From assembly GCA_964400435.1 (NCBI GenBank), contig CAYNUR010000002.1, positions 1-25,096 of the forward strand: DNA of 25,096 nt. The letters run 5' to 3'. Below the pieces are notes generated by a model. That model did no database searches and was not told where the DNA came from. It worked only from the letters and a program-made list of their open reading frames with translations. Both the position numbers and the translations under genes were made by a program. Shown piece by piece: positions 2 to 22,348 of the stretch. Position 1 is the stretch's first letter. The number at the start of each line of letters is the position of its first letter. Source of the DNA: an uncultured Candidatus Peribacteria bacterium. Its GTDB lineage: Bacteria > Patescibacteriota > Gracilibacteria > UBA1369 > LOWO2-01-FULL-3.

Positions 2-586
2 TTGGCATCTACAAACGGTACAGACCTTCAAGCAATTATCGACGAGATGAAGTCAGGAAAAATGCCAGGAATCGAACTGTCAGCTGTGATTAGCAATAAA
101 AAATGTTATGCTTTAGAGCGTTCAGAGGCCCAAGGATTCGAAACTTTCTTCATTGATCCAAAAGGAAAAACAAGAGAAGAATTCGATCAAGAAATGATGG
201 AGCTACTAGAAAAAAAAGAAATAGATCTTATCTGCCTCATCGGCTATATGCGAATTTTAAGTGAAAAGTTCGTGAAAAAATTCGAAAACAAAATCATTAA
301 TGTTCATCCTGCTCTAATTCCAAAATATTCTGGGAAAGAATTTTATGGTTCAAATGTTCATCAAGCTGTCTTAGATTCAGGAGACAAAGAAACTGGAATG
401 ACAATACATTTTGTTGATGAAGGAGTAGATACTGGGAAAATAATCATCCAAAAATCTTGCCCAGTAACTCCTGACGATACAATTCAAACCTTAAAAGACA
501 AAGTTCAGACCTTAGAAAAGAAGTGGTATCCAGAGGTAATTAGAATGTTTGCTAAAGGAGAAATAGATCCTAAAGCTTCTTCTTGA
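2..586 (+). CDS. purN: Phosphoribosylglycinamide (GAR) formyltransferase, 5' end truncated by the window edge
   Basis: LASTNGTDLQAII N-terminal loop, LIGYMRILS, catalytic NVHPALIP and GVDTG motifs, G+TIHFVD; first codon TTG is probably internal (Leu). Confidence 0.95.
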   Translation: MASTNGTDLQAIIDEMKSGKMPGIELSAVISNKKCYALERSEAQGFETFFIDPKGKTREEFDQEMMELLEKKEIDLICLIGYMRILSEKFVKKFENKIINVHPALIPKYSGKEFYGSNVHQAVLDSGDKETGMTIHFVDEGVDTGKIIIQKSCPVTPDDTIQTLKDKVQTLEKKWYPEVIRMFAKGEIDPKASS

Positions 587-1877
587 TCTCATCTCGAGAA
601 CTCATATCTGCCTCAGCTCTATTCTCGCTTATTCTTAATTCCCAGCTTCCTCTTACAAAACTTTTTTCTGGAATATCTTGTGCGACAACTATCCCAGCAC
701 CAATAAAACTATTTCCACCAATCTTCACCCCAGGCATAAAACTAGTATTAATTCCAACTCGCACATTATTTCCTGTGATCAATCCAAATTTACTTTCACC
801 AGTGCAAGTTCTTTCACCTTTCACATTCACTAAAATATTTTTTTCATCTAGTCTCAAATTTCCGGTTACCGTGCCAGCTCCAAATGAAACATTTCTTCCG
901 ATAACACTATCTCCTACATAGTTAGAATGTGTCCAAACTTCACCATCCAAATAACTCCTCGCAACCTCAGTACTAAAACCAATTACACAATTATCACCCA
1001 CAAAGCTATCCCTTACCAATGCATTCGAAGCAATTATTGAACCATCACCAATATATGCCGGTCCATTCACAATCGCTCCATCAAAAATCTTCACATTCTT
1101 TCCAATAATTACCTCTCCATTAACAATAGCATTCTCAGAAATTTGAGCTGAATCATCAATCTTCTTCTCAGAAATTTCAAAAAAGTGTCGAGCCACTTTC
1201 ATCACATGCCAAGGATATTTTATTGCTTGCCAAAAACCATCATAAGAAACAGATTTAAAAGAGATCCCTGCTTTCATCATATCTGCCAAGGCAACCTCAT
1301 AAATGTCATCATTATCACTTTTTGCGCTTTCTAAATAGTCAATAAACCTACCTCCATCTCCAAAGTAATGCACAACCAAATTCACCAAATCACTCGGTTC
1401 ATTTCCCTCACCAGGCTTCTCAATGATATTTAAAATAAATCCATTCTCATCAGTTTCTAGATACCCACCAGGAAAATACTCATCAACTTTTTTCCCCAAT
1501 AGAAAATTTTCAGCATCCCCTTTCTCAATTTCTTTTTTCATTAATTGAAAAGCAGAATCTTCAACAACATCATTTCCGCTAACTACCAAAAAAGAATCAT
1601 TCACCAAGAATTCTTTTGCAGCTAAAACCGCACCACACATACCTTTATCATCATTTTGAATAGCAAAATCAGCCTTAACTTCTAATTCATCAAAGACCTT
1701 CTTCATATCTTCAATCACATTTTCCCTGCCAACAACCACAATCTCTTCAAAACCATTTTTCAATAATTTCTCAATTTGCCATTGGATCAAAGGTTTCCCC
1801 AAAAATTTTAAAAAATTCTTATCTTCAACCGGCTTCATCCTTTTACTTCTGCCAGCAACCATTAATAATACTTTCAT
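570..1877 (-). CDS. glmU: Bifunctional sugar-1-phosphate nucleotidyltransferase/acetyltransferase (archaeal-type GlmU-like; NTP_transferase + left-handed beta-helix)
   Basis: N-terminal LMVAGRSKRMKP...K..LGKPLI, IIEKP motif, C-terminal hexapeptide repeats (GPAYIG, SNYVGDSVIG.NVSFGAGTVTGNLR, VGINTSFMPGVKIG). Substrate not determinable from sequence. Confidence 0.75.
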   Translation of the reverse strand: MKVLLMVAGRSKRMKPVEDKNFLKFLGKPLIQWQIEKLLKNGFEEIVVVGRENVIEDMKKVFDELEVKADFAIQNDDKGMCGAVLAAKEFLVNDSFLVVSGNDVVEDSAFQLMKKEIEKGDAENFLLGKKVDEYFPGGYLETDENGFILNIIEKPGEGNEPSDLVNLVVHYFGDGGRFIDYLESAKSDNDDIYEVALADMMKAGISFKSVSYDGFWQAIKYPWHVMKVARHFFEISEKKIDDSAQISENAIVNGEVIIGKNVKIFDGAIVNGPAYIGDGSIIASNALVRDSFVGDNCVIGFSTEVARSYLDGEVWTHSNYVGDSVIGRNVSFGAGTVTGNLRLDEKNILVNVKGERTCTGESKFGLITGNNVRVGINTSFMPGVKIGGNSFIGAGIVVAQDIPEKSFVRGSWELRISENRAEADMSSRDEIKKKL

Positions 1878-1939
1878 GAGTTTATTTTAATGCCATAAAC
1901 CTCTATAATTTATACACATTTTTCCCTTAAAATAAAGTA

Positions 1940-3127
1940 ATGGAATTCGTTTATCGATTCAGAGCACTTCTAAAAAGTATTAAAGATTCCTGTTTTTCGC
2001 CACTAGCAAAGTTCCTTATCAGGTTTGGAGTTACCTGTAACCACATTACTCTAGTTAGTTTCACCTTTGGAATTTTAGCAGCAATTTTCCTCTCATATAG
2101 TCATCTATTATTTAGCATTTTTATTGCAGTTGCCGTTTTTTTAGATGGCCTAGATGGAGTAATGGCCAGACAAGGAAAACCAAAGGAGATAGGCTGGTTT
2201 TTAGATATGCTCAACGATCGCTTGGTAATGTTTTTCATTCTTGTACAAATCTATTTTAGCCAAAATCTAGATTTAATCACTCTTACTACTATCTCTTATG
2301 CCTTGGTAAAAGGATATTACATTTTTCAAAATACAGTCAGAAAAAAACAATATAATGCAGTTCATTTAGATTTGATTGCCTACATTTTCTTAATTTTTCA
2401 GGAATTCCAACTCGGTATATATTTCGTTTTAGCATCTTTAGCTTTTAATGTTTTGGAATTACTTATTCAAGCCTTAAAAAAGAATAAACAAAAGGCTAAA
2501 AAAGTAGTTAAAAAAGGAGTAACAGAAGTTAAGAATGAAACAACTTATGCAAATTTTATTTCACTATTGAGACCAATCTTAGCAATACTAGCTTTGTACT
2601 TTCTTAATTCACAACCTTATATTCTAGCTGGAACAATAACTATCATCATCCTTCTAGATGCTCTAGATGGTATCGTAGCTAGAAGATCAAAAAAGAAAGG
2701 AAAACATGGTGCTTTCATTGATATTATTGCTGACAGAGCTGTAGAGCTAATAATCCTATATGTTTATGCTTATTGGGGATTAATCACCTATTTATTCCCA
2801 ATAATTTTTACAGTTCGTGGCCTTTCTACAGATTTTCTTAGATTCTTAAATAGAAAGTATCCCGACATAAAATTTAAAGAACCTCTTTCTCTCGGTGGTG
2901 CAGATAATAGGTTTATTAGAGGTTTTTACGGTTTCATCAAGTTAGCTGCATTTTCGCTAATATTAATTCACCAATTATCTGGATTCTGGCTAATGGTCTT
3001 AGCTATTATCCTCAACCTTTATCGTGGTCTACCTGTAATATTTTCAAACAGATCGAAAGTGCTTTTTGCCAAATTTCTTGAAGAAAAAAAGTCCAAGAAA
3101 TCACAAAAAAAGATTCAAAATCCTTAA
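1940..3127 (+). CDS. Membrane protein with two tandem CDP-alcohol phosphatidyltransferase domains
   Basis: Two intact DxxDGxxAR(x7-8)GxxxDxxxD signatures: DGLDGVMARQGKPKEIGWFLDMLND and DALDGIVARRSKKKGKHGAFIDIIAD; each is preceded by an N-x-I-T/S motif and they are joined by a Lys-rich linker. Confidence 0.88.
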   Translation: MEFVYRFRALLKSIKDSCFSPLAKFLIRFGVTCNHITLVSFTFGILAAIFLSYSHLLFSIFIAVAVFLDGLDGVMARQGKPKEIGWFLDMLNDRLVMFFILVQIYFSQNLDLITLTTISYALVKGYYIFQNTVRKKQYNAVHLDLIAYIFLIFQEFQLGIYFVLASLAFNVLELLIQALKKNKQKAKKVVKKGVTEVKNETTYANFISLLRPILAILALYFLNSQPYILAGTITIIILLDALDGIVARRSKKKGKHGAFIDIIADRAVELIILYVYAYWGLITYLFPIIFTVRGLSTDFLRFLNRKYPDIKFKEPLSLGGADNRFIRGFYGFIKLAAFSLILIHQLSGFWLMVLAIILNLYRGLPVIFSNRSKVLFAKFLEEKKSKKSQKKIQNP

Positions 3128-4326
3128 GTGAGAACTTCCAAAAGCCTATCGTGATCAATTCCCTTCCGCACTTCAAGAGCTATTCGATCGCCATAACTCA
3201 AGCTTTCTCCATAAAGATATGAAGTAGCAGGAGTGAAACGTGTTCCTGGTGAACCCGGAATTCTCATACTCACATCGAAGACAACAAATTCCTCTTTTCC
3301 CTTATAAGAAGCCATCGCTCCCTGCAAAGCAAAAGGTCCAATAATTCCTGGATCAACTTCTTTTTTCAAAGTCTCAACAAATTTTTCCCCGGCATTAAAG
3401 GCCTTTTCTAGAATTGATTCTTTTGTCGTACAAGCAATATGTCCAGTTTCTACCATAGAAGGTTTATAGCCTGATTTTAAAAGACCCATTTGAGTCATTG
3501 CATCTAAACGTAAGAATCCATCAAGACTGGTTTGTCTTCTCGTATCAGTTCCCATAATCTCTAGTTCATCATCAATAGGGGAGTAAAAGTAATTAAAATT
3601 AATCTGAGCTCCCAAGACAAATTCTTCAATCACAGACTTATCCAAGTCTTCTTTTAATATTGTTCCATCTTTTATCATTTTTTCACTAGTATCCCAGTAT
3701 TCTTTTTCACTAGTAATAACAAAAAATGCTCTTTCATAACTTCTCTCAGCCTCATTTACTTTGATTATCAGAGGAAATCCTTCTTCACTAAAGTGTTTCT
3801 TCAATACTTCACTTACTTCCTCATCATTCATTCCACTATCTCCTGTCCGAAGAATTTTAGGAGTTCTAATTCCAGCTTTCTCCAGCAAAACATACTGATT
3901 GTTAGGGTGATCTCTTTCCTCTAATTTTACCAATTCTCTACTACCAAAAATCGGCACTTTAAAATTCTTTTCAACCTTCTCAAAATCGCAGTAAACCCAA
4001 AAATATCGATTATGAACGAAAATTGTATTCATTTCACGTAATTTCTTTTGAACATCGTCATTTACAACATCTCCAAACTTATCAACCATGATCACATCAT
4101 CAATACAACCAATTTCACCAGAAATGGAATAACCATCTTTTCTAGTTTTGTAATATTGTGAATAAGTTTTATCTCGACCTTTCTGGCAAACAGCCACCGT
4201 TTTAAAACCAAAATTTTTCGCTCCAGAACAAACATCTAATGCACTGTGACCACCTAGAACACCAATTGTTACATTTTCCATATCATAATCCGAAACTATT
4301 TTTGCAATTTCCTCCTTTGAAATCAT
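3124..4326 (-). CDS. purP: PurP-like ATP-grasp protein (archaeal FAICAR synthetase family, divergent paralogue)
   Basis: MISKEEI..Y...TIGVLGGHSALDV, VAVCQKGR, FNYFYSP..DELE, RRQTSLDGFLRL, GIIGPFALQ, RIALEVRKGI...L.EVLT match the PurP (DUF1246+DUF1297) family; symbol is family-level only. Confidence 0.85.
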   Translation of the reverse strand: MISKEEIAKIVSDYDMENVTIGVLGGHSALDVCSGAKNFGFKTVAVCQKGRDKTYSQYYKTRKDGYSISGEIGCIDDVIMVDKFGDVVNDDVQKKLREMNTIFVHNRYFWVYCDFEKVEKNFKVPIFGSRELVKLEERDHPNNQYVLLEKAGIRTPKILRTGDSGMNDEEVSEVLKKHFSEEGFPLIIKVNEAERSYERAFFVITSEKEYWDTSEKMIKDGTILKEDLDKSVIEEFVLGAQINFNYFYSPIDDELEIMGTDTRRQTSLDGFLRLDAMTQMGLLKSGYKPSMVETGHIACTTKESILEKAFNAGEKFVETLKKEVDPGIIGPFALQGAMASYKGKEEFVVFDVSMRIPGSPGTRFTPATSYLYGESLSYGDRIALEVRKGIDHDRLLEVLT

Positions 4327-4360
4327 AATTTTTTATTAAATTTTATCCCCCAAATTTTAT

Positions 4361-4903
4361 CTATAAATTTAGCAATTCTATATTTTCTTGCTGTGCTTCA
4401 ATCACTCCATTAATCAATTCATCTAACTCTATTCCCAATTCTTCAGCTCCTTGTCTCACATCTTCACGACTAACATTCGCAGCAAAAGCCTTATCTTTTA
4501 ATTTCTTCTTAACAGATTTTAGCTTCATCCCTTCAAACTTAGTTGGCCTAACTTGTGCAACAGCTACAACAAATCCAGACAATTCATCAACCGCAAATAA
4601 AGTTTTTTCCATCAAGCTTTCTCTCACAATATCAGGGTGATTTACATGTCTTTGAATTGCTTGAATAACATCTTCTTCAACATTTAATTCCCTCAAAATT
4701 TTTTCACCAGGTTTAGGATGCTCTTCAGGATATTTCTCATAATCAAAATCATGTAAAAGTCCTGTAATATACCATTTTTCACTGTCTTCACCATTCTTCT
4801 TTGCAAAATATTCCATTGATGATGCAACAGACCTACAATGTCTTCTCAAGCTCTCACTTTCTACATATTCTTGCAGAATTTTTTCTGCAGCTTCACGATT
4901 CAT
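4361..4903 (-). CDS. HD-superfamily metal-dependent phosphohydrolase (HDIG type)
   Basis: H...HD...D motif: LRRHCRSV, GLLHDFDYE, AIQRH, LFAVDELSGF; C-terminal KSVKKKLKDKAFAANVSRE typical of this small HD family. Confidence 0.85.
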   Translation of the reverse strand: MNREAAEKILQEYVESESLRRHCRSVASSMEYFAKKNGEDSEKWYITGLLHDFDYEKYPEEHPKPGEKILRELNVEEDVIQAIQRHVNHPDIVRESLMEKTLFAVDELSGFVVAVAQVRPTKFEGMKLKSVKKKLKDKAFAANVSREDVRQGAEELGIELDELINGVIEAQQENIELLNL

Positions 4904-4973
4904 GGATAATTTTTAACTTACAAAAAAAATATAACACGAACAAATCATGCTAGCGAGAATTTCAACTGCACAA

Positions 4974-5996
4974 CTAGCCTAAAACCATTTCTAATTTATC
5001 CTGTTCAATTGCTTCTTTAATATCTCTAGCAATTCTTCGTCCTGTACTCATAGGAACATCATACCTTAGCCAAGAATAAGGTGAACCATTGGTATAAGGA
5101 TTTGTTCCAGCTACAATTCTTGCTGAAATTTCAAAGATATAATAATTCAATTCAGGGTCCACAATTCCTTCTAAACAGAAAGGTCCAAACATCCCATTAT
5201 CAACAAGTTTTCTAGAAGCATCGACTACTTGCTGTCCCATCTCAAAAACAGTTGGCAAAACAGATTCTCTCAAAACAATCGGTACATTTCCAGTGATTGT
5301 ATACGTAGTTCTAATCCCCACATCAACTTGATCTTTAGCAGCGATTCTACCAATAGAATCCGCATTAGACTCATACCTCTTATCAAAGCTCATAATCTCT
5401 AATTCGTCATTCAGTCGACTATAAAAATAATGAGTATAAACTGGAACACCCACAATATATTCTTGAATCGCATAACCAGTCTCATCATCTTCAAACTCTT
5501 TGTACCTCTCATAAAATTCCTTAGTCGAATTCGCTAAGAAATATCCTTGTCCTCCACGTGCACCATGGAATTTAATAATAACAGGTCTATCAATTTCTTC
5601 AGGACTAGCAAAAACCTTAGGAAGTTTAATTCCTGCATCTAAAAGCCATTCTCTTTCTTTTGATCGATCAGATTCCCATTCCAAAATTCCCTTTGTACCA
5701 TAGTGCATAGCTTTCATATCAGTCTTAATCTTCTCAGCACCAAGATAAGCGACAAAAGAACCATGTGGAACAACTATTGCATTTTCATCAACCAGTTGTT
5801 GTTCAATAGAAAAGTAATCTTTAAATTTATCTACTTCAATAATTTTATCTGCAACACCATAGCTTGTGTAAGGCTTAGTTCTACCTTTTTCACAAATAAC
5901 AATAGTTTCAAAGCCTTCATCTTTTGCCCCCTTTAATATTTGAAGAGCGGTATGACTTCCCAGAGTTGCAATTTTAAAATCTTTTACTTTTGTCAT
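4974..5996 (-). CDS. purP: 5-formaminoimidazole-4-carboxamide ribonucleotide (FAICAR) synthetase, formate/ATP-dependent, archaeal type
   Basis: IATLGSHTALQILKGAKDEGF, PHGSFVAYLG, WESDR, IDRPVIIKFHGARGGQGYF, RYESNAD, GPFCLE, FEISARIVAGTN, MSTGRRIAR closely follow canonical PurP. Confidence 0.92.
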   Translation of the reverse strand: MTKVKDFKIATLGSHTALQILKGAKDEGFETIVICEKGRTKPYTSYGVADKIIEVDKFKDYFSIEQQLVDENAIVVPHGSFVAYLGAEKIKTDMKAMHYGTKGILEWESDRSKEREWLLDAGIKLPKVFASPEEIDRPVIIKFHGARGGQGYFLANSTKEFYERYKEFEDDETGYAIQEYIVGVPVYTHYFYSRLNDELEIMSFDKRYESNADSIGRIAAKDQVDVGIRTTYTITGNVPIVLRESVLPTVFEMGQQVVDASRKLVDNGMFGPFCLEGIVDPELNYYIFEISARIVAGTNPYTNGSPYSWLRYDVPMSTGRRIARDIKEAIEQDKLEMVLG

Positions 5997-7056: not shown

Positions 7057-7125
7057 TAACATGAGTGCAATTCTCAATATCAGAGAAAATTGCGCCCAAA
7101 AATGAAAAGAAATAACAAAAATAAA

Positions 7126-10100
7126 ATGGAAGAACACAAGGATCCTAAACAAAAAGAAGGGACTGATCATCCACTTCACGGTTCTACTCCAGGTTCGCAG
7201 GTGAATAAAAAATCACCCGTAAAAAAATGGGGAATATTTGCTTCAGTTGCAGTTGTAATTGGAGTTGTGGCTTATGTTTTAACAGGGACACAGTTATTCC
7301 AAGGGAATATTAGTGGTCCTTTAGACCAAGCAGGTCCAGATGAAATTATGGATCAGATCTACAATGGTTTTGGTCAAAAAGACCTTAGGTTAAGCTATGA
7401 AACCCTCTCTCAAGTTCAACAAGACGAATACAAGAGTTATTATGATAGCTGGGTACAAGTTGAAGATAGACTTGTGAATGATATTCCAAATTTTGATGCG
7501 CTTGAAGTTGAATTACTCAATACTATTGCAGAAAACTATAAACAAGGTTTTGCAGCCCATCCTGATAAAATCCTAGACTTAGTTCATAGCGATTACGAAC
7601 TTACGATTCAAAATCTTATGAGTCTTTTTGATTTTGCAGTTACTGTTTATAGAGATCCAAATGTAGTTCAAGCAAACGGTGTAAATGTTGATGCATTCTT
7701 TGATAGATATAACGATCAATATTTCAATAATAGAAATGCATCTTTACAATTAAGAACCTATTTTAGAAGTGGATTTTGGGATAATGAGATGGTGACTTTC
7801 TTTGATACATATTTTGACGCAATGTATAACTATGTTGAAGCACTTGCATTTACTACAGTTTCCACAGATGACTCAACAACACCAAATACAGCAGTGATTA
7901 ACGGTGTGATTCCAGCTGCCGAGCAAGCAAGAATTCAGCAATTATTTGATGATGCAATTGCAATTCAACCACAAGGAATGGGATTAAACACACCTCCTTT
8001 TGATATTGATTTACCAATGGAAAGAGATGCGAGTCAGCCTTCAAATATTTGGTATTCACCACTAATAAAAACTCCAACTTTCCCACAAACATGGTTGGAT
8101 GATTTAGTTGCAGATATGCAAGCAAGTTATGATCAAGCAGCAAATGACAGAACAGAACAAGCATTAAGAGATTTAGCAAACCATACCAGAGAATTCGTAA
8201 ATGATGGAAGTGCATGTCACCTAATGTATAACACGGTGAATGATTTAAATAACATGCGTCCTCCAGAAGAAAGAATGGATGTTGTCCTACACGATATTTC
8301 TATACAAGAAAACAGTGGTACAAATATCAGATTAGAAGACACAGACACTAAAGCTTATTTTAAGCTATATGGTCCAGTTAACGGAACAGCAATTCCTACA
8401 ACTCCGGAAAAAGAAGTTTACCAGTACTTAGCAGATAACAATTATGTAGGAGAAGACATTATGATTTTTGCTTCTGGAGATAAAAACAGTCAAGAATCTC
8501 AAGGCCTTGAAGCCTACGAACCTACTGAAAAAATTGAAATTCAAGAAGCACAAAAAGTAATTAATTCAATCAATCAAGCAGATGACATTCAAACTCTTAA
8601 ACAATACGAAAGAGCCTGGGGAGAAGTTATTGTTGAAGGTGAATATAATTCTGGTGAGGTTCTCGGAGATGCTGATTATCAAGTCGTTAACACTTACATC
8701 CAAGAAACCAAAACACAGCAATTTAAAAAATTGATCGAAGGTTATCCAAATCTTTCCGAGTCTCAGTTAAAGGACCTTCTTACATTGATAGATGGAACAG
8801 AAGAGTATTCAACTTTAGAAGAATACAAAGAAATTCTTGATTCAAAAGCTTTCGGACAAGATGAAGTTCCTGGAGTTTACACAACGATAAACGATGCAAT
8901 AATTGATCAACAGGCAGAAGTTAAGAAAATTGAAGCAGTAAAAGTTCAAGAAAACTACTACGAATTTGAACCAGCAAACTTATACTTACAAGATTATCAA
9001 TCTCCTACAAGAGTTGAATCAAGCTTGCCTGGCTCAAACGGAAGAACAGCATATGCCCAAGAAATGAGATCACCGGATGAGGAAAATGAAGATATTCCTG
9101 GAGAAGTTGTGGATGATTCAGGAAATACACCAGTTGATAACCAAGAAACAAATGATGGAGGAAGTGCAGAGGGAACAACGGGAGAAGGATCAACAGAAGG
9201 AGGAACAAATGATGGAGGAAGCGCAGAGGGAACAACCGGAGAAGGATCAACAGAAGGAGGAACAAATGATGGAGGGAGTACAGAAGGATCAACTGGAGGA
9301 GAATCAACAGAAGGTGGAATGACAGAAGGAGGAAGCAATGATGGTTCAACTTTAGAGCAAGCAAATGGTGGACTTGTAATTACAGGAACAAACAATCCAG
9401 AAGCCACGAAAGTAGTTGCAACATCAGCTGATATTACTTTCTACTGTATAGATATCCAAGAGCAACAAGTGCCTCAAGACGGAGAGGATGGAACAGATGG
9501 ATTTAGTTGTTGGGACACAAATCAGAACGGAATGAACGATGATGCAGAAGATGTTAATCAAGATGGAGAGTGGAATACGCTAGACTGCCAAGGAGCAGAT
9601 GGTGCAGATGGGACTGATGGAGGGGATGGACAAGCATGTTGGGATACCAACTCAAACGGAGTACCTGATCCTGAAGAGGATGTAAACAATGACGGTTTAA
9701 TAGATGTTCAAGATTGTCAGGGAGCAGACGGACAAGATGGAACAGATGGATTCAGTTGTTGGGATACAAATCAGAACGGAATGAATGATGATGCAGAAGA
9801 TGTAAATCAAGATGGATTCTGGTCAATACAAGATTGTCAGGGGTCAGATGGGGAAGACGGAACAGATGGATTCAGTTGTTGGGATACAAATCAGAACGGA
9901 ATGAATGATGATGCAGAAGATGTAAATCAAGATGGATTCTGGTCAACACAAGATTGTCAGGGGTCAGATGGAGAAGATGGAGAAGACGGAGTTGACGGAC
10001 AAGATGGAGCAGACGGTCAAGACGGTATTGATGGTCAAGCATGTTGGGATGTCAACAACAATGGAACAAGAGATACAAATGAAGACACAAATGGCGACGG

Positions 10101-11061
10101 AATAGTCGATATCAACGATTGTAGAGGTCAAGATGGAAGAGATGGTTCAGGAATTGGTGGGGGAGAAATATATATTGATATTAACATCGAAGATAATTCA
10201 GTCACTGAAATCAATACAGACCGAATCGTGGATGATTATTTTGGAGGAGGAGCAATCACGAATACAGCAACAAATGAAACAGGAGATGTAAACGTAAATA
10301 ACTACGTAGAAATCATCTCTCAAGATGTGCCAGCAGGCGATCTAGTAGCAGAGATCACAAGTCCAGCAAGAAACAACACAGCACTAGATTTCTTTGAATG
10401 TTTAGATCCAGTAACACCAGTGAGTTTCACAGATATCGCAAATGCCTACTACGCCTACGAGCCAGTACAAACATCAGCAAGACTAGGGTACGAAAACCAA
10501 GCGATTACCATAGGTTACCCACAAGGAGTATCAAGAGTATTCAGAGACAAATCAAACATTACGAGAGCAGAATTGAACAAAATGGTAGCGTTTGCATCAT
10601 GTATCTATCCATACTTTGAACAAGAAGGAATCTATGACGAATTAACAAACAGATTCAATGATAACAGTGCAAATGATTGGTTCTACAGACAAGTGAATGC
10701 GTCAGCAAATGGAGGATTAATCCAAGGATATACAGACGGAACATTCAAGCCAAATCAGCCTATTACGAGAGCAGAAGCAACAAAAATCATAGTAGAAATC
10801 TACTTGAGAATATTCCCAGAGAAACAATTGGGAAGTTGTACGAACTCACCATTTAAAGATGTATTCCCAACAGAGTGGTACTGCGGATATGCAGGAACAG
10901 CCTTCAGAGAAGGGATAGTACTAGGTTCAATCAACTCACAAGGAGATCACTTATTCAGACCAAATGCATCAATAACAAGAGGAGAAGTAGCGGTAATTCT
11001 ATATAACTTCTTCATCACAACCTTACAAAATAGTTTAGAAGACACTTCTCTTTCTAACTAG
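7126..11061 (+). CDS. Large acidic surface protein A: N-terminal TM anchor, Gly/Thr/Glu spacer, five Cys-bounded DxNxDG modules with collagen-like linkers, three C-terminal SLH domains
   Basis: TM WGIFASVAVVIGVVAYVL followed by LFQG; SLH motifs ITRAELNKMV, GYTDGTFKPNQPITRAEA, FRPNASITRGEVA. ORF track starts at TTG 7090; ATG 7126 preferred because its context (AATAACAAAAATAAAATGGAAGAA) mirrors the paralogue's start at 11095. Confidence 0.85.
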   Translation: MEEHKDPKQKEGTDHPLHGSTPGSQVNKKSPVKKWGIFASVAVVIGVVAYVLTGTQLFQGNISGPLDQAGPDEIMDQIYNGFGQKDLRLSYETLSQVQQDEYKSYYDSWVQVEDRLVNDIPNFDALEVELLNTIAENYKQGFAAHPDKILDLVHSDYELTIQNLMSLFDFAVTVYRDPNVVQANGVNVDAFFDRYNDQYFNNRNASLQLRTYFRSGFWDNEMVTFFDTYFDAMYNYVEALAFTTVSTDDSTTPNTAVINGVIPAAEQARIQQLFDDAIAIQPQGMGLNTPPFDIDLPMERDASQPSNIWYSPLIKTPTFPQTWLDDLVADMQASYDQAANDRTEQALRDLANHTREFVNDGSACHLMYNTVNDLNNMRPPEERMDVVLHDISIQENSGTNIRLEDTDTKAYFKLYGPVNGTAIPTTPEKEVYQYLADNNYVGEDIMIFASGDKNSQESQGLEAYEPTEKIEIQEAQKVINSINQADDIQTLKQYERAWGEVIVEGEYNSGEVLGDADYQVVNTYIQETKTQQFKKLIEGYPNLSESQLKDLLTLIDGTEEYSTLEEYKEILDSKAFGQDEVPGVYTTINDAIIDQQAEVKKIEAVKVQENYYEFEPANLYLQDYQSPTRVESSLPGSNGRTAYAQEMRSPDEENEDIPGEVVDDSGNTPVDNQETNDGGSAEGTTGEGSTEGGTNDGGSAEGTTGEGSTEGGTNDGGSTEGSTGGESTEGGMTEGGSNDGSTLEQANGGLVITGTNNPEATKVVATSADITFYCIDIQEQQVPQDGEDGTDGFSCWDTNQNGMNDDAEDVNQDGEWNTLDCQGADGADGTDGGDGQACWDTNSNGVPDPEEDVNNDGLIDVQDCQGADGQDGTDGFSCWDTNQNGMNDDAEDVNQDGFWSIQDCQGSDGEDGTDGFSCWDTNQNGMNDDAEDVNQDGFWSTQDCQGSDGEDGEDGVDGQDGADGQDGIDGQACWDVNNNGTRDTNEDTNGDGIVDINDCRGQDGRDGSGIGGGEIYIDINIEDNSVTEINTDRIVDDYFGGGAITNTATNETGDVNVNNYVEIISQDVPAGDLVAEITSPARNNTALDFFECLDPVTPVSFTDIANAYYAYEPVQTSARLGYENQAITIGYPQGVSRVFRDKSNITRAELNKMVAFASCIYPYFEQEGIYDELTNRFNDNSANDWFYRQVNASANGGLIQGYTDGTFKPNQPITRAEATKIIVEIYLRIFPEKQLGSCTNSPFKDVFPTEWYCGYAGTAFREGIVLGSINSQGDHLFRPNASITRGEVAVILYNFFITTLQNSLEDTSLSN
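9148..9318 (+). repeat. Three tandem 57-bp coding repeats (TNDGGSAEGTTGEGSTEGG)
   Basis: Units at 9148-9204, 9205-9261 (near identical) and 9262-9318 (degenerate). Confidence 0.9.
9478..10146 (+). repeat. Five coding modules C-W-D-x-N-x-N-G...E-D-x-N-x-D-G...D-C separated by G-x-D triplets; includes a near-perfect 120-bp tandem duplication (~9739-9978)
   Basis: Lines 9781-9840 and 9901-9960 differ at one base; the repeated peptide is visible in the translation. Confidence 0.9.
10228..11052 (+). repeat. Direct repeat copy 1 (SLH-encoding 3' cassette), partner at 13585-14409
   Basis: Line-by-line comparison: identical over 10228-10958, then five synonymous mismatches to 11052; offset 3357 bp (duplicated ORFs 10398/13755 have the same offset). 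Confidence 0.95.
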
Positions 11062-11094: not shown

Positions 11095-14000
11095 ATGGAG
11101 GAAAACAAAAACAATATGCCTGAGGAAAAGGCAACTCCAGCAGAACCAATGCCAGAGATGAATTCTCCTCAGCCAGAACCGCCAAAAAAATCTAACGCAA
11201 TGAAATGGTTTATTGGTATAGCGGTGATTTTAATTCTAGGGATTAGTTCATATTTCCTAGCTACATCAGACTTATTTAGAGGTCAGTTAGTGCTACAAGG
11301 TCCAGATCCTGCAACACCTGAAGAAGAAGGAGCCGCAGATGCTTTTGAAGATCTTTACAGAAATCTATCAAATCGTGATTTTGCAGCAATACTAGAATCA
11401 CTTCCTCAAAGCCAAGATGAAGCTATTAGGACGATTCTTAAAACTCCAACAAAACTATATGAAGATCTTGAAAATCGAACTCAAGTTTCAGGTGAAATCG
11501 AAAAAATTCATGAATTTGTAGCAACGACAAATAGTGCATATGACCAGCATTATGAGAATATTCTAGTTTATTTACCTGAATCCTTCGAGATTGATGGAGA
11601 CGTTTATAATATTCAGCATATTGTTAGGCAGTTAGCTCCAGAAGGTCTAGTCGTAGATGCTCTCACTCTTTCAGCAAACGCAATAGAGTTAATTGTTTTA
11701 ACTCCTGAAGATAATTCACCAGAAATAATCAATACAATCACGAACGATTTTATTGATTTAGCTCATGCAGTAGCAAGAAATGTTCATCAGGTAAGTATTG
11801 CTGATATTGTAGATGCAGATACACAAGCTTGGGCAAATGGAGTTGCAACAGCAATTGAACAAGCTCCAGATTTCTTTGATACCGTTGCAAATGCCGATTT
11901 AATTGATAATTTAAGTTCATCAAACGACTTGGTACAGTTTGTAGTTGAAAACACAGACATAAAAGCCCATCCAATTGGTTTAACTCTTCAAGGTTTTGAA
12001 GGTGATTATTATGATGAAATCTTAACAGACCTAGGTCTGGCTGATGGAGCTACAACAGATTTTATTAAAGTAGAAAATGTTTGGATTCCGGAAGATATGC
12101 ATGCTGGGTTCAATGATGTTATCAGAGAGCTAACTTTAGCAATTGTTCAGGTTCCGGATTATCCAGCTCTTCAACAGGAATCAAACTCACTAGGTTGTGA
12201 TATTAGTCAGTACATTCCTGAGTGCAACGATTTGATCTATGAATATGACCAAAAGCTATGGGAAAGAGGCAATATTGTCGCTTCAGGAGGAGACACTACA
12301 ACAGTTGATCAAGAAATTGCTGAGATTGAAAATGATGCAAATGCAATAAGTTGTACGCTTGTTGATGCACCAGAGTACTGGAGAGAGTGTGAAGATTACT
12401 CACGTGAATATGAACAACTACGAGAACAAAGTGCAGAAATGGCAAACAATGGGCAAGATACAACTACAATAGACAACCAAATTGCCCAACTTACTGATCA
12501 GGCAAGTGCTGAGAAATGTGATCTCGGGGAGCCTCAAAAAAGAAGTTGTGAAGATATTGCTACAGAATATAGAAATGAATCTTTAGCTTCAATAGTAGAA
12601 TATATTATTGATGAAATGAATGCAGCTCCTGCAGATACAGAGTACTATCTTGAACTAGGAAATAAATTAGCTGATGAATTAATCGAGTCAGCAAAACAAT
12701 TTGAAAATACAGGTTATGCTTGCCAATATCTTGCTACATCAGCAAGTGCAGTAGACGGTTTTTTAACAGAGGCATTGGGTACAGAATACACAGATGAATT
12801 TGAATTCATTTACAACCAAAACGACTTCCAAAATGCAGATGTTGATTATGTTAATGGGCTTGAAACAGATAGTGTAGTTGCAGATAACCCAGACTATAAC
12901 GAGGTACTTCACATTACAGGTCCAATTCATGGTGAATATCAAACAGATGCTAACGGTAAGGGAATTTACATTCCAGAAGAAAATTACATTGGAGAAGATA
13001 TGATCTTAGATATTTATGCTAATCCAAATACAGATAGTGGAATCATAGCAGTTAGCTGTACTAACATTCTTCCAGAGTGTTGGGATTCAAATACGAATGG
13101 ACTTAAAGATTCTGACGAAGATTTAAATGAAGACGGAGAAGTTGATGACCTCGATTGTGAAGTTATACCAGAACCACCAGTTGATCCAGTAGTTTCATGT
13201 TATGACACTGACGGTGATGGAGTCTACGAAGTTGGAGACGAAAACAATGACGGAGTAATCGATGAAAATGACTGTGACTACGAAGAACCAACTGAACCAG
13301 AAGCAGCAGAGCCTTCTGAACCACCAGAGTTAGAATGTGAAGATATCAATAATGATGGAGTAATCGATAATACGGATTGTTTCCCTGAAGAAGTAGACAT
13401 AGCTGCATGTTGGGATCTAAACGATAATGGCCAAAGAGATGTCGCAACTGAAGATCAAAATAATGATGGAGTGGTTGATATCAGAGATTGTTCAGGAACA
13501 GGAAGTGGTTTAGGTGGAGCAGATCTATACATCAACATCAATATTGAAGATAACTCCGTAACAGAAATTAATTTAGATGATTTAGTGGATGATTATTTTG
13601 GAGGAGGAGCAATCACGAATACAGCAACAAATGAAACAGGAGATGTAAACGTAAATAACTACGTAGAAATCATCTCTCAAGATGTGCCAGCAGGCGATCT
13701 AGTAGCAGAGATCACAAGTCCAGCAAGAAACAACACAGCACTAGATTTCTTTGAATGTTTAGATCCAGTAACACCAGTGAGTTTCACAGATATCGCAAAT
13801 GCCTACTACGCCTACGAGCCAGTACAAACATCAGCAAGACTAGGGTACGAAAACCAAGCGATTACCATAGGTTACCCACAAGGAGTATCAAGAGTATTCA
13901 GAGACAAATCAAACATTACGAGAGCAGAATTGAACAAAATGGTAGCGTTTGCATCATGTATCTATCCATACTTTGAACAAGAAGGAATCTATGACGAATT

Positions 14001-14415
14001 AACAAACAGATTCAATGATAACAGTGCAAATGATTGGTTCTACAGACAAGTGAATGCGTCAGCAAATGGAGGATTAATCCAAGGATATACAGACGGAACA
14101 TTCAAGCCAAATCAGCCTATTACGAGAGCAGAAGCAACAAAAATCATAGTAGAAATCTACTTGAGAATATTCCCAGAGAAACAATTGGGAAGTTGTACGA
14201 ACTCACCATTTAAAGATGTATTCCCAACAGAGTGGTACTGCGGATATGCAGGAACAGCCTTCAGAGAAGGGATAGTACTAGGTTCAATCAACTCACAAGG
14301 AGATCACTTATTCAGGCCAAATGCATCAATAACAAGGGGAGAAGTAGCAGTAATTCTATATAACTTCTTCATCACAACCTTACAAAATAGTTTAGAAGAT
14401 ACCTCTCTTCAGTAA
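11095..14415 (+). CDS. Large acidic surface protein B, paralogue of A: N-terminal TM, helical Cys-stapled repeats, Cys-bounded DxNxDG modules with Pro/Glu linkers, three SLH domains
   Basis: TM WFIGIAVILILGISSYFL followed by LFRG; C-terminal ~275 aa essentially identical to protein A. Confidence 0.88.
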   Translation: MEENKNNMPEEKATPAEPMPEMNSPQPEPPKKSNAMKWFIGIAVILILGISSYFLATSDLFRGQLVLQGPDPATPEEEGAADAFEDLYRNLSNRDFAAILESLPQSQDEAIRTILKTPTKLYEDLENRTQVSGEIEKIHEFVATTNSAYDQHYENILVYLPESFEIDGDVYNIQHIVRQLAPEGLVVDALTLSANAIELIVLTPEDNSPEIINTITNDFIDLAHAVARNVHQVSIADIVDADTQAWANGVATAIEQAPDFFDTVANADLIDNLSSSNDLVQFVVENTDIKAHPIGLTLQGFEGDYYDEILTDLGLADGATTDFIKVENVWIPEDMHAGFNDVIRELTLAIVQVPDYPALQQESNSLGCDISQYIPECNDLIYEYDQKLWERGNIVASGGDTTTVDQEIAEIENDANAISCTLVDAPEYWRECEDYSREYEQLREQSAEMANNGQDTTTIDNQIAQLTDQASAEKCDLGEPQKRSCEDIATEYRNESLASIVEYIIDEMNAAPADTEYYLELGNKLADELIESAKQFENTGYACQYLATSASAVDGFLTEALGTEYTDEFEFIYNQNDFQNADVDYVNGLETDSVVADNPDYNEVLHITGPIHGEYQTDANGKGIYIPEENYIGEDMILDIYANPNTDSGIIAVSCTNILPECWDSNTNGLKDSDEDLNEDGEVDDLDCEVIPEPPVDPVVSCYDTDGDGVYEVGDENNDGVIDENDCDYEEPTEPEAAEPSEPPELECEDINNDGVIDNTDCFPEEVDIAACWDLNDNGQRDVATEDQNNDGVVDIRDCSGTGSGLGGADLYININIEDNSVTEINLDDLVDDYFGGGAITNTATNETGDVNVNNYVEIISQDVPAGDLVAEITSPARNNTALDFFECLDPVTPVSFTDIANAYYAYEPVQTSARLGYENQAITIGYPQGVSRVFRDKSNITRAELNKMVAFASCIYPYFEQEGIYDELTNRFNDNSANDWFYRQVNASANGGLIQGYTDGTFKPNQPITRAEATKIIVEIYLRIFPEKQLGSCTNSPFKDVFPTEWYCGYAGTAFREGIVLGSINSQGDHLFRPNASITRGEVAVILYNFFITTLQNSLEDTSLQ
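13585..14409 (+). repeat. Direct repeat copy 2 (SLH-encoding 3' cassette), partner at 10228-11052
   Basis: Same comparison as copy 1. Confidence 0.95.
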
Positions 14416-14663: not shown

Positions 14664-16202
14664 CTAATGTCTAAAGTATCTCCTCCCAGAAAACACCATC
14701 GCTAATCCTAACTCGTTAGCTCTTTTTATTACTTCGTCATCTCTAATAGATCCACCTGGTTGAATAATTGAGGTGACACCAAGCTCAGCAGCTTGTTCAA
14801 TTCCATCAGCAAATGGGAAAAATGCATCTGAAGCCATCACAGATCCTGGAATATTCTCTCCTCCCTTTCTGCCAGCAAGCCATACACTATCAACTCTCGA
14901 CATTTGACCCGCACCAATTCCTGTAACAGTTGTACCTTTTGCCATAACAATTGCATTTGATTTGACGTGTTTAGCTACTACGTTGGCAAATAACATAGAT
15001 TTTATTTCTTCTTCACTCGGTTTTTTCTCAGTAACAACTTTTAGATCGCTTTCACTTAACTTATAAGTGTCCTTAGTTTGAATCAAAATTCCACCAGCAA
15101 CTTTTTTGATATCAGTCTTCAAATGATCCAGTTTGAGTTCTCCAGTCCTTAGAATTCTTAAATTCTTTCTTTTCATTAACCTTTCTAGTGCTTTTTTCTC
15201 AAATGAAGGTGCAATAATTATCTCAACAAACATTTTTTCATCATTCATATAGTCAACAATTGCTTCATTTACTTCACGATTGACAGCAATTACACACCCA
15301 AATGCAGATAAAGAATCCACCTTATGCCCAGCTTTAAAAGCTTCTTCAATCGTAGAAGCAGTTGCCACTCCACAAGGGTTATTATGTTTAATAAAAACAG
15401 CTGCAGGCTCCTTGAATTCCTTAGCTAGTTCAAGTGCACTATCTCCATCAACTAAATTATTGAAAGACAATTGTTTACCATGTAACACTTCAGAATTAGT
15501 AATATTAGAGTCATGATTGTCAGGATTTCTAAAGAAAGCAGCTTTTTGATGAGGGTTTTCACCGTATCTTAGGCTCGCAACTTTTTCATAATGTAGACTC
15601 AAAAGTTCAGGTTCACCAAGACTCTCTCGCAAATAGTTTTCTATCATTGAGTCGTACCTTGCGGTGAGCGTAAATGCTTTTCTAGCAAGTTTCTTTCTTG
15701 TTTCAACTGATGTTTCACCATTTTTAGCAATCTCCTTCAAAACCAGTTCGTAGTCATTAGGATCTGTTAGAACAGTGACATGTGCAAAATTCTTTGCTGC
15801 ACTTCTAACCATGCTTGGTCCTCCAATGTCAATGTTTTCAATCGCTTCTTCCTCAGTTACTCCATCTTTTTTAATAGTTTCTTCAAATGGATAAAGGTTA
15901 ACTACAACCATATCAATCATTTGAACGTCATTCTGTTCAGCTGCACCCATATGCGATTGATCATTTCTCAAAGCCAAAATTCCTCCGTGAACCTTTGGAT
16001 GTAAAGTTTTAACTCTTCCTCCCATCATTTCTGGAAATCCAGTGTAGTCTGCAACATCAACCACATTTACTCCAGCCTCACGAATTTTATTTGCAGTACC
16101 ACCTGTTGAGAGAATTTCAATCCCTAAACTATCTATTTTTTTTGCAAGTTCAATAATCCCAGACTTATCTGAGACACTTATTAAAGCACGTTTAATCGCC
16201 AT
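14664..16202 (-). CDS. purH: Bifunctional AICAR transformylase / IMP cyclohydrolase
   Basis: RALISVSDK, GGRVKTLHP, IENIDIGGPSM, LRYGENPHQ, catalytic IKHNNPCG, GAGQMSRVDS, ASDAFFPF, QPGGSIRD, RYFRH. Confidence 0.98.
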   Translation of the reverse strand: MAIKRALISVSDKSGIIELAKKIDSLGIEILSTGGTANKIREAGVNVVDVADYTGFPEMMGGRVKTLHPKVHGGILALRNDQSHMGAAEQNDVQMIDMVVVNLYPFEETIKKDGVTEEEAIENIDIGGPSMVRSAAKNFAHVTVLTDPNDYELVLKEIAKNGETSVETRKKLARKAFTLTARYDSMIENYLRESLGEPELLSLHYEKVASLRYGENPHQKAAFFRNPDNHDSNITNSEVLHGKQLSFNNLVDGDSALELAKEFKEPAAVFIKHNNPCGVATASTIEEAFKAGHKVDSLSAFGCVIAVNREVNEAIVDYMNDEKMFVEIIIAPSFEKKALERLMKRKNLRILRTGELKLDHLKTDIKKVAGGILIQTKDTYKLSESDLKVVTEKKPSEEEIKSMLFANVVAKHVKSNAIVMAKGTTVTGIGAGQMSRVDSVWLAGRKGGENIPGSVMASDAFFPFADGIEQAAELGVTSIIQPGGSIRDDEVIKRANELGLAMVFSGRRYFRH

Positions 16203-20309: not shown

Positions 20310-20310
20310 A

Positions 20311-21945: not shown

Positions 21946-21946
21946 A

Positions 21947-22327: not shown

Positions 22328-22348
22328 AAAAGCAAAATAAAAACCAAA

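What the first reader, a model, noticed from the sequence alone, without database searches (positions are those of the whole stretch)
1940..3127. Two complete CDP-alcohol phosphotransferase domains fused in one polypeptide
Seen: both halves keep all four catalytic Asp residues, have diverged strongly in sequence and are joined by a Lys-rich linker. Established: these enzymes are normally single-domain homodimers (PgsA, PssA, PIP synthase, eukaryote-type cardiolipin synthase, DIPPS), sometimes fused to a cytidylyltransferase, and CPR bacteria generally lack fatty-acid synthesis. Inference: a covalent heterodimer running two successive head-group transfers (e.g. PGP then cardiolipin, or inositol/polyol-phosphate lipids) to remodel scavenged host lipids. 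The divergently transcribed nucleotidyltransferase 62 bp away might supply an activated substrate.
Basis: partly seen in the sequence, partly recalled or inferred. Interest (0 to 1): 0.65.

Follow-up and report, generated by a model that had tools for sequence, protein, structure and literature searches.

The report
Two lipid head-group transferases fused
A tiny symbiotic-type (CPR/Patescibacteria) bacterium has joined two different, apparently intact membrane enzymes of the CDP-alcohol phosphotransferase family into one 12-helix protein. The fusion is rare, uncharacterised and evolutionarily unstable, and it probably puts polar head groups on scavenged lipids.

Summary
Window 1940-3127 (+) is one 395-aa ORF with two PF01066 domains, each above Pfam's cut-off. 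Each carries a complete DxxDGxxAR...GxxxDxxxD motif, and a Lys-rich linker joins them.

The halves are not a recent duplication. They belong to two deeply separated subfamilies: N resembles AIPS/PIPS, C resembles PgsA/ClsA. Charge distribution fits a 6+6 TM topology with both active sites and the linker in the cytoplasm.

The fusion is rare:
- 13 clusters among 5.8 billion proteins.
- 1 of 205 species genomes of its order.

It is also labile. Close relatives carry N only, C only or other CDP-AP pairs in the same slot between a GlmU-like gene and purP, and monophyly of the fused N domains is rejected (p-AU 1e-5).

The genome lacks CdsA, PlsC, DgkA, MIPS and PGP phosphatase. It does have a CarS-like cytidylyltransferase, which co-occurs with these CDP-APs across relatives (Fisher p 6e-6).

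Best reading: a covalent pair, possibly a pseudo-heterodimer, of two independently competent CDP-lipid head-group transferases. An obligatory two-step pathway is unlikely. Acceptors are unknown. A new variant of a known kind, of moderate interest.

The parts
1940..3127 (+). Single ORF of 395 aa: tandem CDP-alcohol phosphotransferase (N-type domain, linker, C-type domain)
   Evidence: ORF list; PF01066 in two stretches; 12 homologues with the same architecture
1940..2473 (+). N domain (residues 1-178): amphipathic N-terminal helix plus 6 TM helices. Subfamily closest to archaetidylinositol-P / PIP synthases
   Evidence: NCBIfam NF040950 61.6 bits, NF045883 47.2 bits, both far below their cut-offs. 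AlphaFold helices. N-like clade in the tree
2144..2218 (+). N-domain catalytic motif D69xxD72G73xxA76R77...G85xxxD89xxxD93, followed by R94
   Evidence: Regex. The four Asp and the Gly are invariant in 13 fusion proteins; R77 varies R/K/Q; R94 is present in 12 of 13
2474..2545 (+). Lys-rich cytoplasmic linker (about residues 179-202)
   Evidence: 9 K/R in residues 177-203; pLDDT below 50 at 185-201; variable length in the family alignment
2546..3124 (+). C domain (residues 203-395): 6 TM helices with a long conserved cytoplasmic TM4-TM5 loop (R293-R327) and a basic tail. Subfamily closest to PgsA/ClsA/AIPS
   Evidence: NCBIfam NF040950 51.7 bits, TIGR00560 37.7 bits, below cut-offs. Mean pairwise identity 63% against 40% for the N domain. 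C-like clade
2657..2734 (+). C-domain catalytic motif D240xxD243G244xxA247R248...G257xxxD261xxxD265, followed by R266
   Evidence: Regex; every motif residue is invariant in 13 fusion proteins
1878..1939 (.). 62-bp divergent intergenic region shared with the GlmU-like gene; contains a TATAAT about 30 nt upstream of the ATG
   Evidence: Sequence. Promoter-like sites in the region are not above chance
570..1877 (-). Divergent neighbour: archaeal-type bifunctional sugar-1-phosphate nucleotidylyltransferase/acetyltransferase (GlmU-like). Conserved neighbour of the CDP-AP slot; a functional link is not shown
   Evidence: PF00483 + Hexapep; TIGR03992 265 bits; synteny in L004, L020, L021, L027, L029, L035, L037

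Best explanation
The gene encodes a real 12-transmembrane-helix protein built from two full CDP-alcohol phosphotransferase (CDP-AP) enzymes of two anciently separated subfamilies. The N-type is nearest to archaetidylinositol-phosphate/PIP synthases. The C-type is nearest to PgsA and CDP-AP-type cardiolipin synthase, and has a long conserved cytoplasmic TM4-TM5 loop.

Shown:
- Both halves keep the complete di-metal/CDP-binding motif and the basic residue after the fourth Asp.
- Both active sites, the Lys-rich linker and both termini are predicted to lie on the cytoplasmic side, so the domains sit parallel in the membrane, as the two protomers of known CDP-AP homodimers do.

Inferred:
- Each domain transfers a phosphatidyl-type group from a CDP-activated lipid to an alcohol, most likely a phosphorylated one.
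- The CDP-lipid is made by the genome's CarS-like cytidylyltransferase from scavenged phosphatidate-type lipid, since CdsA and PlsC are absent.
- The two domains act as two independently competent head-group transferases working side by side on the same donor pool. They are not two obligatory successive steps, because relatives live with either domain alone.
- Fusion probably replaces the usual homodimer by an intramolecular pseudo-heterodimer and fixes 1:1 stoichiometry.
For: Anatomy:
- Two PF01066 hits, each above the cut-off.
- Two complete motifs.
- All four Asp are invariant in both domains across 13 fusion proteins; R94 is present in 12 of 13 and R266 is invariant.
- In M. tuberculosis PgsA1 the equivalent R94 binds the acceptor's phosphate (PMC6506517).

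Fold:
- The AlphaFold models are helical with 6+6 TM helices.
- Foldseek's best PDB hits are AF2299, IPCT-DIPPS, PIP synthases and PgsA.
- K/R residues occur only in alternate loops.

Subfamilies:
- Two deep clades in the domain tree.
- HMM rankings are AIPS > PIPS > DIPPS for N-type and AIPS ~ PgsA > ClsA for C-type, in the window protein and in stand-alone relatives.
- C-type relatives are fused to YqeG/PGP-phosphatase-type HAD domains (P0017, P0028, P0140). That fits a phosphorylated product.

Independence of the domains:
- N-only (L037, G014, G018, G019) and C-only (L032, L034/L035, G002, G020) relatives exist, several in the identical slot and strand.
- The fused state changes at least 5 times on the N tree, and monophyly of the fused N domains is rejected, p-AU 1.3e-5.

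Donor supply:
- CarS-like protein at C27:5977-6522, PF01864 123.5 bits.
- No canonical CdsA and no PlsC.
- CarS-like presence tracks CDP-AP presence in 41 relatives: 17/2/4/18, Fisher p 5.8e-6.
- The two genes are adjacent in G025 and G032.
Against: - No acceptor can be assigned. Every equivalog HMM scores far below its cut-off.
- The genome (88% complete) shows no myo-inositol-1-phosphate synthase, no GpsA above cut-off, no PF09419 phosphatase and no DgkA.
- The intramolecular dimer is not demonstrated. pTM is 0.48 for the window protein and 0.61 for P0003, and model coordinates could not be inspected.
- The N domain evolves much faster than the C domain: 24-36% against 52-67% identity to the other fusions. 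In the family its motif Arg is often K or Q, so its activity could be altered or weak.
- CarS-like proteins in bacteria have no tested substrate that I know of.
- The conserved neighbours (GlmU-like, GT2, BacA) could point to an envelope glycopolymer rather than phospholipid.
Confidence: 0.55

Rival explanations
1. Sequential two-step machine. One domain (C-type, PgsA-like) makes phosphatidylglycerol phosphate. The other uses the dephosphorylated product and a second CDP-diacylglycerol to make cardiolipin, or carries out another consecutive head-group transfer. Fusion would channel the intermediate.
For: - The C-type domain scores on PgsA and ClsA models.
- C-type relatives are fused to PGP-phosphatase-family HAD domains.
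- Fusions often join consecutive pathway steps.
Against: - N-only and C-only genomes and loci exist among close relatives.
- No PF09419 phosphatase is detected in this genome for the intermediate step.
- The N-type domain ranks with inositol-phosphate-type synthases, not ClsA.
Confidence: 0.15
2. Only the C domain is the working enzyme. The N domain is a degenerating or regulatory partner that mainly serves as the obligatory second protomer of the dimer, perhaps completing the C-site pocket in trans.
For: - The N domain is far less conserved: mean pairwise identity 40% against 63%, with a long branch for the window's N half.
- The motif Arg is replaced by K or Q in most family members.
- In PgsA1, residues of the second protomer line the acceptor pocket.
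Against: - All four Asp, the Gly and R94 are retained. The window's own N domain has the fully canonical AR.
- N-type proteins occur as the only CDP-AP of this kind in several relatives (G014, G018, G019, L037), so they must function alone.
- K/Q/I at the Arg position also occurs in stand-alone N-type proteins.
Confidence: 0.15
3. Not a phospholipid enzyme. One or both domains transfer a phospho-alcohol between soluble or polyprenol-linked substrates. Examples are a DIPP-like solute, or a phospho-alcohol decoration of an envelope glycopolymer, made together with the neighbouring GlmU-like, GT2 and BacA genes.
For: - Synteny with the GlmU-like gene, the GT2 glycosyltransferase and BacA is conserved.
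- An epimerase sits next to the N-type gene in L038.
- The DIPPS model is among the N-type hits.
Against: - No cytidylyltransferase for a soluble alcohol is fused or evident.
- No inositol-1-P synthase is detected.
- CDP-AP presence tracks the lipid-type CarS-like cytidylyltransferase, and the two are adjacent in G025/G032.
- The same block also holds unrelated purine genes, so the synteny may not be functional.
Confidence: 0.1
4. Artefact: two adjacent genes merged by an assembly or sequencing error.
For: Stand-alone N-type and C-type genes exist in relatives at the same place.
Against: - The reading frame is open across the junction.
- Twelve independent assemblies from different sources show the same fused architecture, with linkers of variable length but in frame.
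Confidence: 0.02

Closest known systems
Phosphatidylinositol-phosphate / archaetidylinositol-phosphate synthases (M. tuberculosis PgsA1, PDB 6H53/6H59; Renibacterium PIPS 5D91; NCBIfam NF045883, NF040950)
   Same: Same fold and motif. The Asp numbering of the N domain is almost identical to PgsA1 (D68/D71/D89/D93 there). The basic residue after the fourth Asp (R94) is kept. These are the best HMM and PDB sequence hits for the N domain.
   Different: Scores are far below the equivalog cut-offs (61.6 against 180; 47.2 against 170). No inositol-1-P synthase is found in the genome. The known enzymes are single-domain homodimers.
PgsA (PGP synthase; S. aureus PDB 7DRJ; TIGR00560) and CDP-AP-type cardiolipin synthase ClsA (NF053678)
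   Same: Second and third best models for the C domain and its stand-alone relatives. Structural hits have TM about 0.7 over the target. C-type relatives are fused to PGP-phosphatase-family HAD domains.
   Different: 37.7 bits against a cut-off of 109.1. The C-type subfamily has a long conserved TM4-TM5 loop (R293...R327). No GpsA or PGP phosphatase is detected in the genome.
Bifunctional IPCT-DIPPS of Archaeoglobus fulgidus (PDB 4MND) and AF2299 (4O6M)
   Same: A CDP-AP fused to another enzyme of the same pathway. Among the best fold hits.
   Different: There the partner is a soluble cytidylyltransferase domain and the membrane domains still homodimerise. Here the partner is a second, different CDP-AP membrane domain.
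Covalent pseudo-dimers that arose from homodimeric membrane proteins (for example eukaryotic FEX from Fluc channels, SWEET from SemiSWEET). From my own knowledge, not tested here
   Same: Two parallel homologous membrane domains joined by a cytoplasmic linker. The two halves evolve at unequal rates.
   Different: Those arose by duplication of one gene. Here two long-separated paralogues were joined, both sites look intact, and the fused state is gained or lost repeatedly.
Other fusions of the C-type subfamily found here: P0016 (canonical CDP-AP + C-type), and P0017/P0028/P0140 (HAD phosphatase + C-type)
   Same: The same C-type domain, 39-46% identical for P0016 and P0017 and down to about 34-36% for P0028/P0140, as the fusion partner.
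   Different: The partner domain is different. None of these is characterised.

Membership tests
CDP-alcohol phosphotransferase superfamily (Pfam PF01066) | HMM match above the gathering score, for each half separately | tested here: met
   N half 31 bits and C half 54 bits against a cut-off of 22; whole protein 74.4 bits in 2 stretches
CDP-alcohol phosphotransferase superfamily (Pfam PF01066) | Signature D1xxD2GxxAR...GxxxD3xxxD4 complete | tested here: met
   Residues 69-93 and 240-265. All Asp are invariant in the 13-member family
CDP-alcohol phosphotransferase superfamily (Pfam PF01066) | Six-TM catalytic fold with the motif on TM2-TM3 at the cytoplasmic face | tested here: met
   AlphaFold helices. 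Foldseek probability 1.00 to AF2299, DIPPS, PIPS and PgsA, but the alignment covers only one domain at a time. Positive-inside pattern
CDP-alcohol phosphotransferase superfamily (Pfam PF01066) | Dimer through TM3/TM4 (here: intramolecular N:C pair) | not testable with these tools
   Only pTM is available: 0.48 (window protein) and 0.61 (P0003), with no coordinates. Dimer interface described in PMC6506517
Archaetidylinositol-phosphate synthase (NF040950) / PIP synthase (NF045883) | Equivalog HMM score above the curated cut-off | tested here: not met
   NF040950: N 61.6 and C 51.7 bits against 180. NF045883: N 47.2 and C 31.3 bits against 170
Archaetidylinositol-phosphate synthase (NF040950) / PIP synthase (NF045883) | Supply of inositol-1-phosphate (MIPS, PF07994) in the genome | tested here: not met
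   No match in the 88%-complete genome
PgsA, PGP synthase (TIGR00560) | Equivalog HMM score above the cut-off | tested here: not met
   C half 37.7 bits against 109.1; the N half has no hit
PgsA, PGP synthase (TIGR00560) | CDP-diacylglycerol from CdsA, and a PGP phosphatase | tested here: not met
   PF01148 matches only the CarS-like protein and a weak kinase-like ORF. PF09419 is absent. Other PGP phosphatase families were not searched
CDP-AP-type cardiolipin synthase ClsA (NF053678) | Equivalog HMM score above the cut-off | tested here: not met
   C half 20.5 bits against 240
IPCT-DIPPS bifunctional enzymes (NF041135) | N-terminal cytidylyltransferase domain fused to the CDP-AP | tested here: not met
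   No nucleotidyltransferase domain in the ORF. 41.5 bits against 580, on the membrane domain only

The most novel reading that the evidence does not exclude
The fusion is a natural covalent heterodimer in which each active site is completed in trans by the other, different, domain, as Y133/R137 of the second protomer do in M. tuberculosis PgsA1. That would give an acceptor specificity or product that neither homodimer has. Working with a bacterial CarS-like CDP-lipid synthase, it would form a self-contained, archaeal-flavoured head-group exchange module that lets CPR bacteria re-badge lipids stolen from hosts. Repeated independent N-to-C fusions would then reflect selection for this hetero-pairing.
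Probability: 0.1. Interest if true: 0.75.

Novelty: new variant of a known kind. Interest (0 to 1): 0.45.

Why it matters
All solved CDP-alcohol phosphotransferases are homodimers of one catalytic domain. A natural single-chain pair of two different, intact catalytic domains would do three things:
- It would give a ready-made system for asking how far the two protomers depend on each other, because asymmetric mutants are trivial to make in a fused protein.
- It would show how head-group specificity is set.
- It bears on how CPR bacteria, which cannot make phosphatidate, still control their membrane composition.

The accompanying observation may be the more general lead. In this order a CarS-like (archaeal-type) cytidylyltransferase, not CdsA, travels with the CDP-APs. 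About half of the related genomes have the module and half lack it.

The limits are clear. The fusion is confined to a small clade, is easily lost, and no substrate is known.

Tried and rejected
1. The back-translated pattern scan of GTDB genomes for relatives found only two archaeal C-type genes and no fusion. Distribution therefore had to come from the genome search.

2. I looked for a relic of a lost N domain upstream of the stand-alone C-type gene of G020. tblastn extends the alignment through two stop codons into query residues 146-196. Against the N-domain HMM the stretch scores only 3.3 bits, so I do not count it as evidence.

3. The second CDP-AP hit in the genome (C290, 245 aa, PssA-like) lies on a 1.8-kb contig next to an OmpH/Skp-like gene and is unlike the rest of the genome. 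I treated it as probable bin contamination and did not use it.

4. The weak PcrB (GGGPS) hit at 19.8 bits is below the cut-off and was not taken as evidence for ether-lipid synthesis.

5. Four literature searches found no paper on tandem CDP-AP fusions, nor on CarS-like enzymes in CPR. Absence from this library is not proof of absence.

7. The second and third searches of the 5.8-billion-protein set (alignment profile; C-half region only) returned the same 13 fusion clusters.

8. The internal-promoter idea: promoter-like sites inside the gene are not above chance (4 found against 6.4 expected).
Full report
**1. Observation**

The window holds an ORF at 1940..3127 (+) of 395 aa.
- Pfam finds PF01066 (CDP-OH_P_transf) in two stretches.
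- In a six-frame search of the whole assembly, both halves pass the 22-bit cut-off separately: nt 2036-2347 at 31 bits and nt 2543-3016 at 54 bits.
- A pattern search finds two complete signatures: D69xxD72GxxA76R77..G85xxxD89xxxD93 and D240xxD243GxxA247R248..G257xxxD261xxxD265.
- Residues 177-203 carry 9 K/R and are the only long disordered segment of the AlphaFold model.

The neighbours include bacterial ribosomal protein S6, SSB, M23/LysM peptidase and SLH proteins. One homologue is named 'Patescibacteria group bacterium' by NCBI.

**2. The fused ORF is not an artefact**

Twelve other protein clusters from JGI, ENA, NCBI and Logan assemblies have the same two-domain layout. They are 40-49% identical, and their linkers vary in length but stay in frame. 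P0003 sits in the same gene order: PurN, GT2, GlmU-like (-), fusion (+), PurP, HD, PurP, BacA, PurH.

**3. What the two halves are**

A tree of 118 domains was built from fusion halves, stand-alone relatives and domains from other fusions. It splits into an N-like and a C-like clade (SH-aLRT 95). The protein therefore joins two old paralogues and is not a recent internal duplication.

| | N-type | C-type |
|---|---|---|
| NCBIfam ranking | archaetidylinositol-P synthase > PIP synthase > DIPPS | archaetidylinositol-P synthase ~ PgsA > ClsA |
| Mean pairwise identity in the fusion family | 40% | 63% |
| Window protein's identity to the other fusions | 24-36% | 52-67% |

- Every NCBIfam score is far below its curated cut-off, so neither half belongs to a characterised equivalog.
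- PDB sequence and fold searches give the same picture: PgsA1/PIPS, AF2299, IPCT-DIPPS and S. aureus PgsA.
- All four Asp and the Gly are invariant in both domains.
- The motif Arg of the N domain is R in the window protein but K or Q in most family members. It is K, Q or I in some stand-alone N-type proteins too, so this is a subfamily trait and not a result of fusion.
- Both halves keep a basic residue right after the fourth Asp (R94, R266). In M. tuberculosis PgsA1 the equivalent R94 binds the phosphate of inositol phosphate, and that position is 'always K or R' in these synthases (PMC6506517). I take this as an inference, not a demonstration, that both sites accept a phosphorylated alcohol.
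- C-type relatives are fused to YqeG/PGP-phosphatase-family HAD domains (P0017, P0028, P0140). That fits a phosphorylated product which must be dephosphorylated.

**4. Topology and the dimer question**

- K/R residues sit only in alternate loops: the N terminus, both motif loops, the 131-145 loop, the linker, the 293-330 loop and the C tail. The intervening loops have none.
- With the AlphaFold helices this gives 6+6 TM helices, with both active sites, the linker and both termini cytoplasmic.
- The domains are therefore parallel, as required for the TM3/TM4 dimer seen in solved CDP-APs.
- In PgsA1, Y133 and R137 of the second protomer line the acceptor pocket, so a hetero-pair could in principle alter specificity.
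- Whether N and C actually pair within one chain could not be tested. pTM is 0.48 for the window protein and 0.61 (mean pLDDT 85.6) for the short-linker homologue P0003.

**5. How common, and how stable**

- The fusion forms 13 clusters at 90% identity among 5.8 billion proteins. All three searches returned the same set.
- It forms about four clusters at 50% identity among 1.84 billion representatives: P0001, P0004, P0013 and P0015. P0016 is a different tandem, a canonical CDP-AP plus a C-type domain.
- Among 205 species-representative genomes of the same order, only the window's genome has a full-length match.

The slot between the GlmU-like gene and purP is a CDP-AP cassette hot spot. It holds:

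| Content of the slot | Where |
|---|---|
| N-C fusion (+) | this window, L004 |
| N-type only (+) | L037; 210 bits to the N-domain HMM; stops right after TM6 |
| N-type only (-) | G019, G014 |
| C-type only (+) | L034/L035, 309 bits; L032, 70% identical to the window's C half |
| A third CDP-AP type (-) plus C-type (+) | G002, G020 |
| pgsA-like plus N-type | G005 |
| N-type (+) plus another CDP-AP (-) | L038 |

- Whole-genome six-frame searches show N-type without C-type in G014, G018, G016 and G019, and C-type without N-type in G002 and G020.
- On a careful tree of N-type domains the fused state changes at least five times. Forcing all fused N domains into one clade is rejected (delta lnL 83.9, p-AU 1.3e-5).
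- Long branches are present, including the window's own N domain, so the count is approximate.
- The C-type tree is star-like, with fused and stand-alone members interleaved.

I conclude that each domain is a self-sufficient enzyme and that the fusion is repeatedly made or broken. That argues against an obligatory two-step channel. It fits two parallel transferases that benefit from, but do not need, physical coupling.

**6. Where the donor comes from**

The genome is 88% complete and 1.64 Mb.

| Searched in the genome | Result |
|---|---|
| PlsC-type acyltransferase | absent |
| DgkA | absent |
| myo-inositol-1-P synthase | absent |
| GGGPS | none above cut-off |
| GpsA | none above cut-off |
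| PF09419 phosphatase | absent |
| Canonical CdsA (PF01148) | only cross-hits, see below |

- PF01148 hits only a 181-aa protein that is a full-length CarS-like protein (PF01864, 123.5 bits; C27:5977-6522), plus a weak kinase-like ORF.
- Across 41 related genomes, CarS-like presence tracks the presence of CDP-AP relatives: 17 have both, 2 have the CDP-AP only, 4 have CarS only and 18 have neither (Fisher p 5.8e-6).
- The two genes are adjacent in G025 (601037-601588 and 601618-602133) and in G032.
- The most economical model is a two-gene module. The CarS-like enzyme makes a CDP-activated lipid from scavenged phosphatidate-type lipid, and the CDP-AP(s) attach head groups.
- The divergent GlmU-like gene is a sugar-1-phosphate nucleotidylyltransferase/acetyltransferase (TIGR03992, 265 bits). 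It more probably makes UDP-GlcNAc. Its conserved adjacency is noted, but it is not evidence of substrate supply.

**7. Comparison and verdict**

The protein is a member of the CDP-AP superfamily on every testable criterion. It is not a member of any characterised equivalog (AIPS, PIPS, PgsA, ClsA, DIPPS). What is new is the architecture, a hetero-tandem of two catalytic membrane domains. I found no description of it, and the sources annotate it only generically. I rate it a new variant of a known kind. It is moderately interesting as a natural asymmetric CDP-AP dimer and as a handle on CPR lipid remodelling. Its interest is tempered by its narrow distribution, its lability and the complete lack of substrate information.

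Noticed in passing
G000 contig C27:5977-6522 (-), outside the window: A 181-aa full-length CarS-like (CDP-archaeol synthase family, PF01864, 123.5 bits) gene in a bacterium that lacks canonical CdsA. In 41 relatives it co-occurs with CDP-AP genes (Fisher p 5.8e-6), and it is adjacent to one in G025 and G032.
   Followed up: partly
window 3124-5996 (-), 14664-16202 (-), 2-586 (+): Two paralogous archaeal-type PurP genes (formate-dependent FAICAR synthetase; PF06849 + PF06973) flank an HD-domain gene. A bacterial bifunctional PurH and a PurN-like formyltransferase lie in the same window, so both routes for AICAR formylation appear to be encoded. The block is syntenic across the GTDB family.
   Followed up: partly
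window 7090-11061 (+) and 11095-14415 (+): Two very large tandem ORFs (1323 and 1106 aa) whose only Pfam match is a C-terminal SLH domain. They are likely S-layer or cell-surface proteins. In relatives the BacA-PurH junction lacks them (L004), so they may be an insertion.
   Followed up: no
window 19755-24709 (+): Four consecutive ORFs (184, 544, 126 and 786 aa) with no Pfam match at E <= 1e-4.
   Followed up: no
G000 contig C290:113-850 (-): A PssA-like CDP-AP sits on a 1.8-kb contig next to an OmpH/Skp-like gene, with amino-acid usage unlike the rest of the genome. It is probably a contaminant contig in the bin.
   Followed up: partly
G000 contig C59:686-1333 (+): A 215-aa membrane ORF with a weak PF01148 match (19.5 bits) in the region typical of SEC59/DGK1/VTE5-type CTP-dependent lipid kinases. 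It could phosphorylate a scavenged diacylglycerol or polyprenol. This is speculative.
   Followed up: no
proteins P0016, P0017, P0028, P0140 (other metagenomes): The C-type subfamily fuses readily. Partners found are a canonical CDP-AP domain (P0016, a second kind of tandem) and YqeG/PGP-phosphatase-type HAD domains at either end (P0017, P0028, P0140). Proteins P0022, P0036, P0072 and P0090 have 210-240-aa N-terminal extensions with no Pfam match.
   Followed up: partly
window 3124-3127: The fusion gene and the convergent purP gene overlap by 4 nt at their 3' ends. No terminator-like site lies between them; the only one found lies inside purP at 3335-3354.
   Followed up: no
L006, L007 (uncultured archaeon MAGs): Stand-alone C-type CDP-AP genes in archaeal MAGs score 82-85 bits to the C-domain HMM, with best NCBIfam hit pgsA at 65 bits (scanned for L007 only). 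L006 carries two further CDP-AP genes within 3 kb. This hints at bacterial-archaeal exchange of the subfamily.
   Followed up: no
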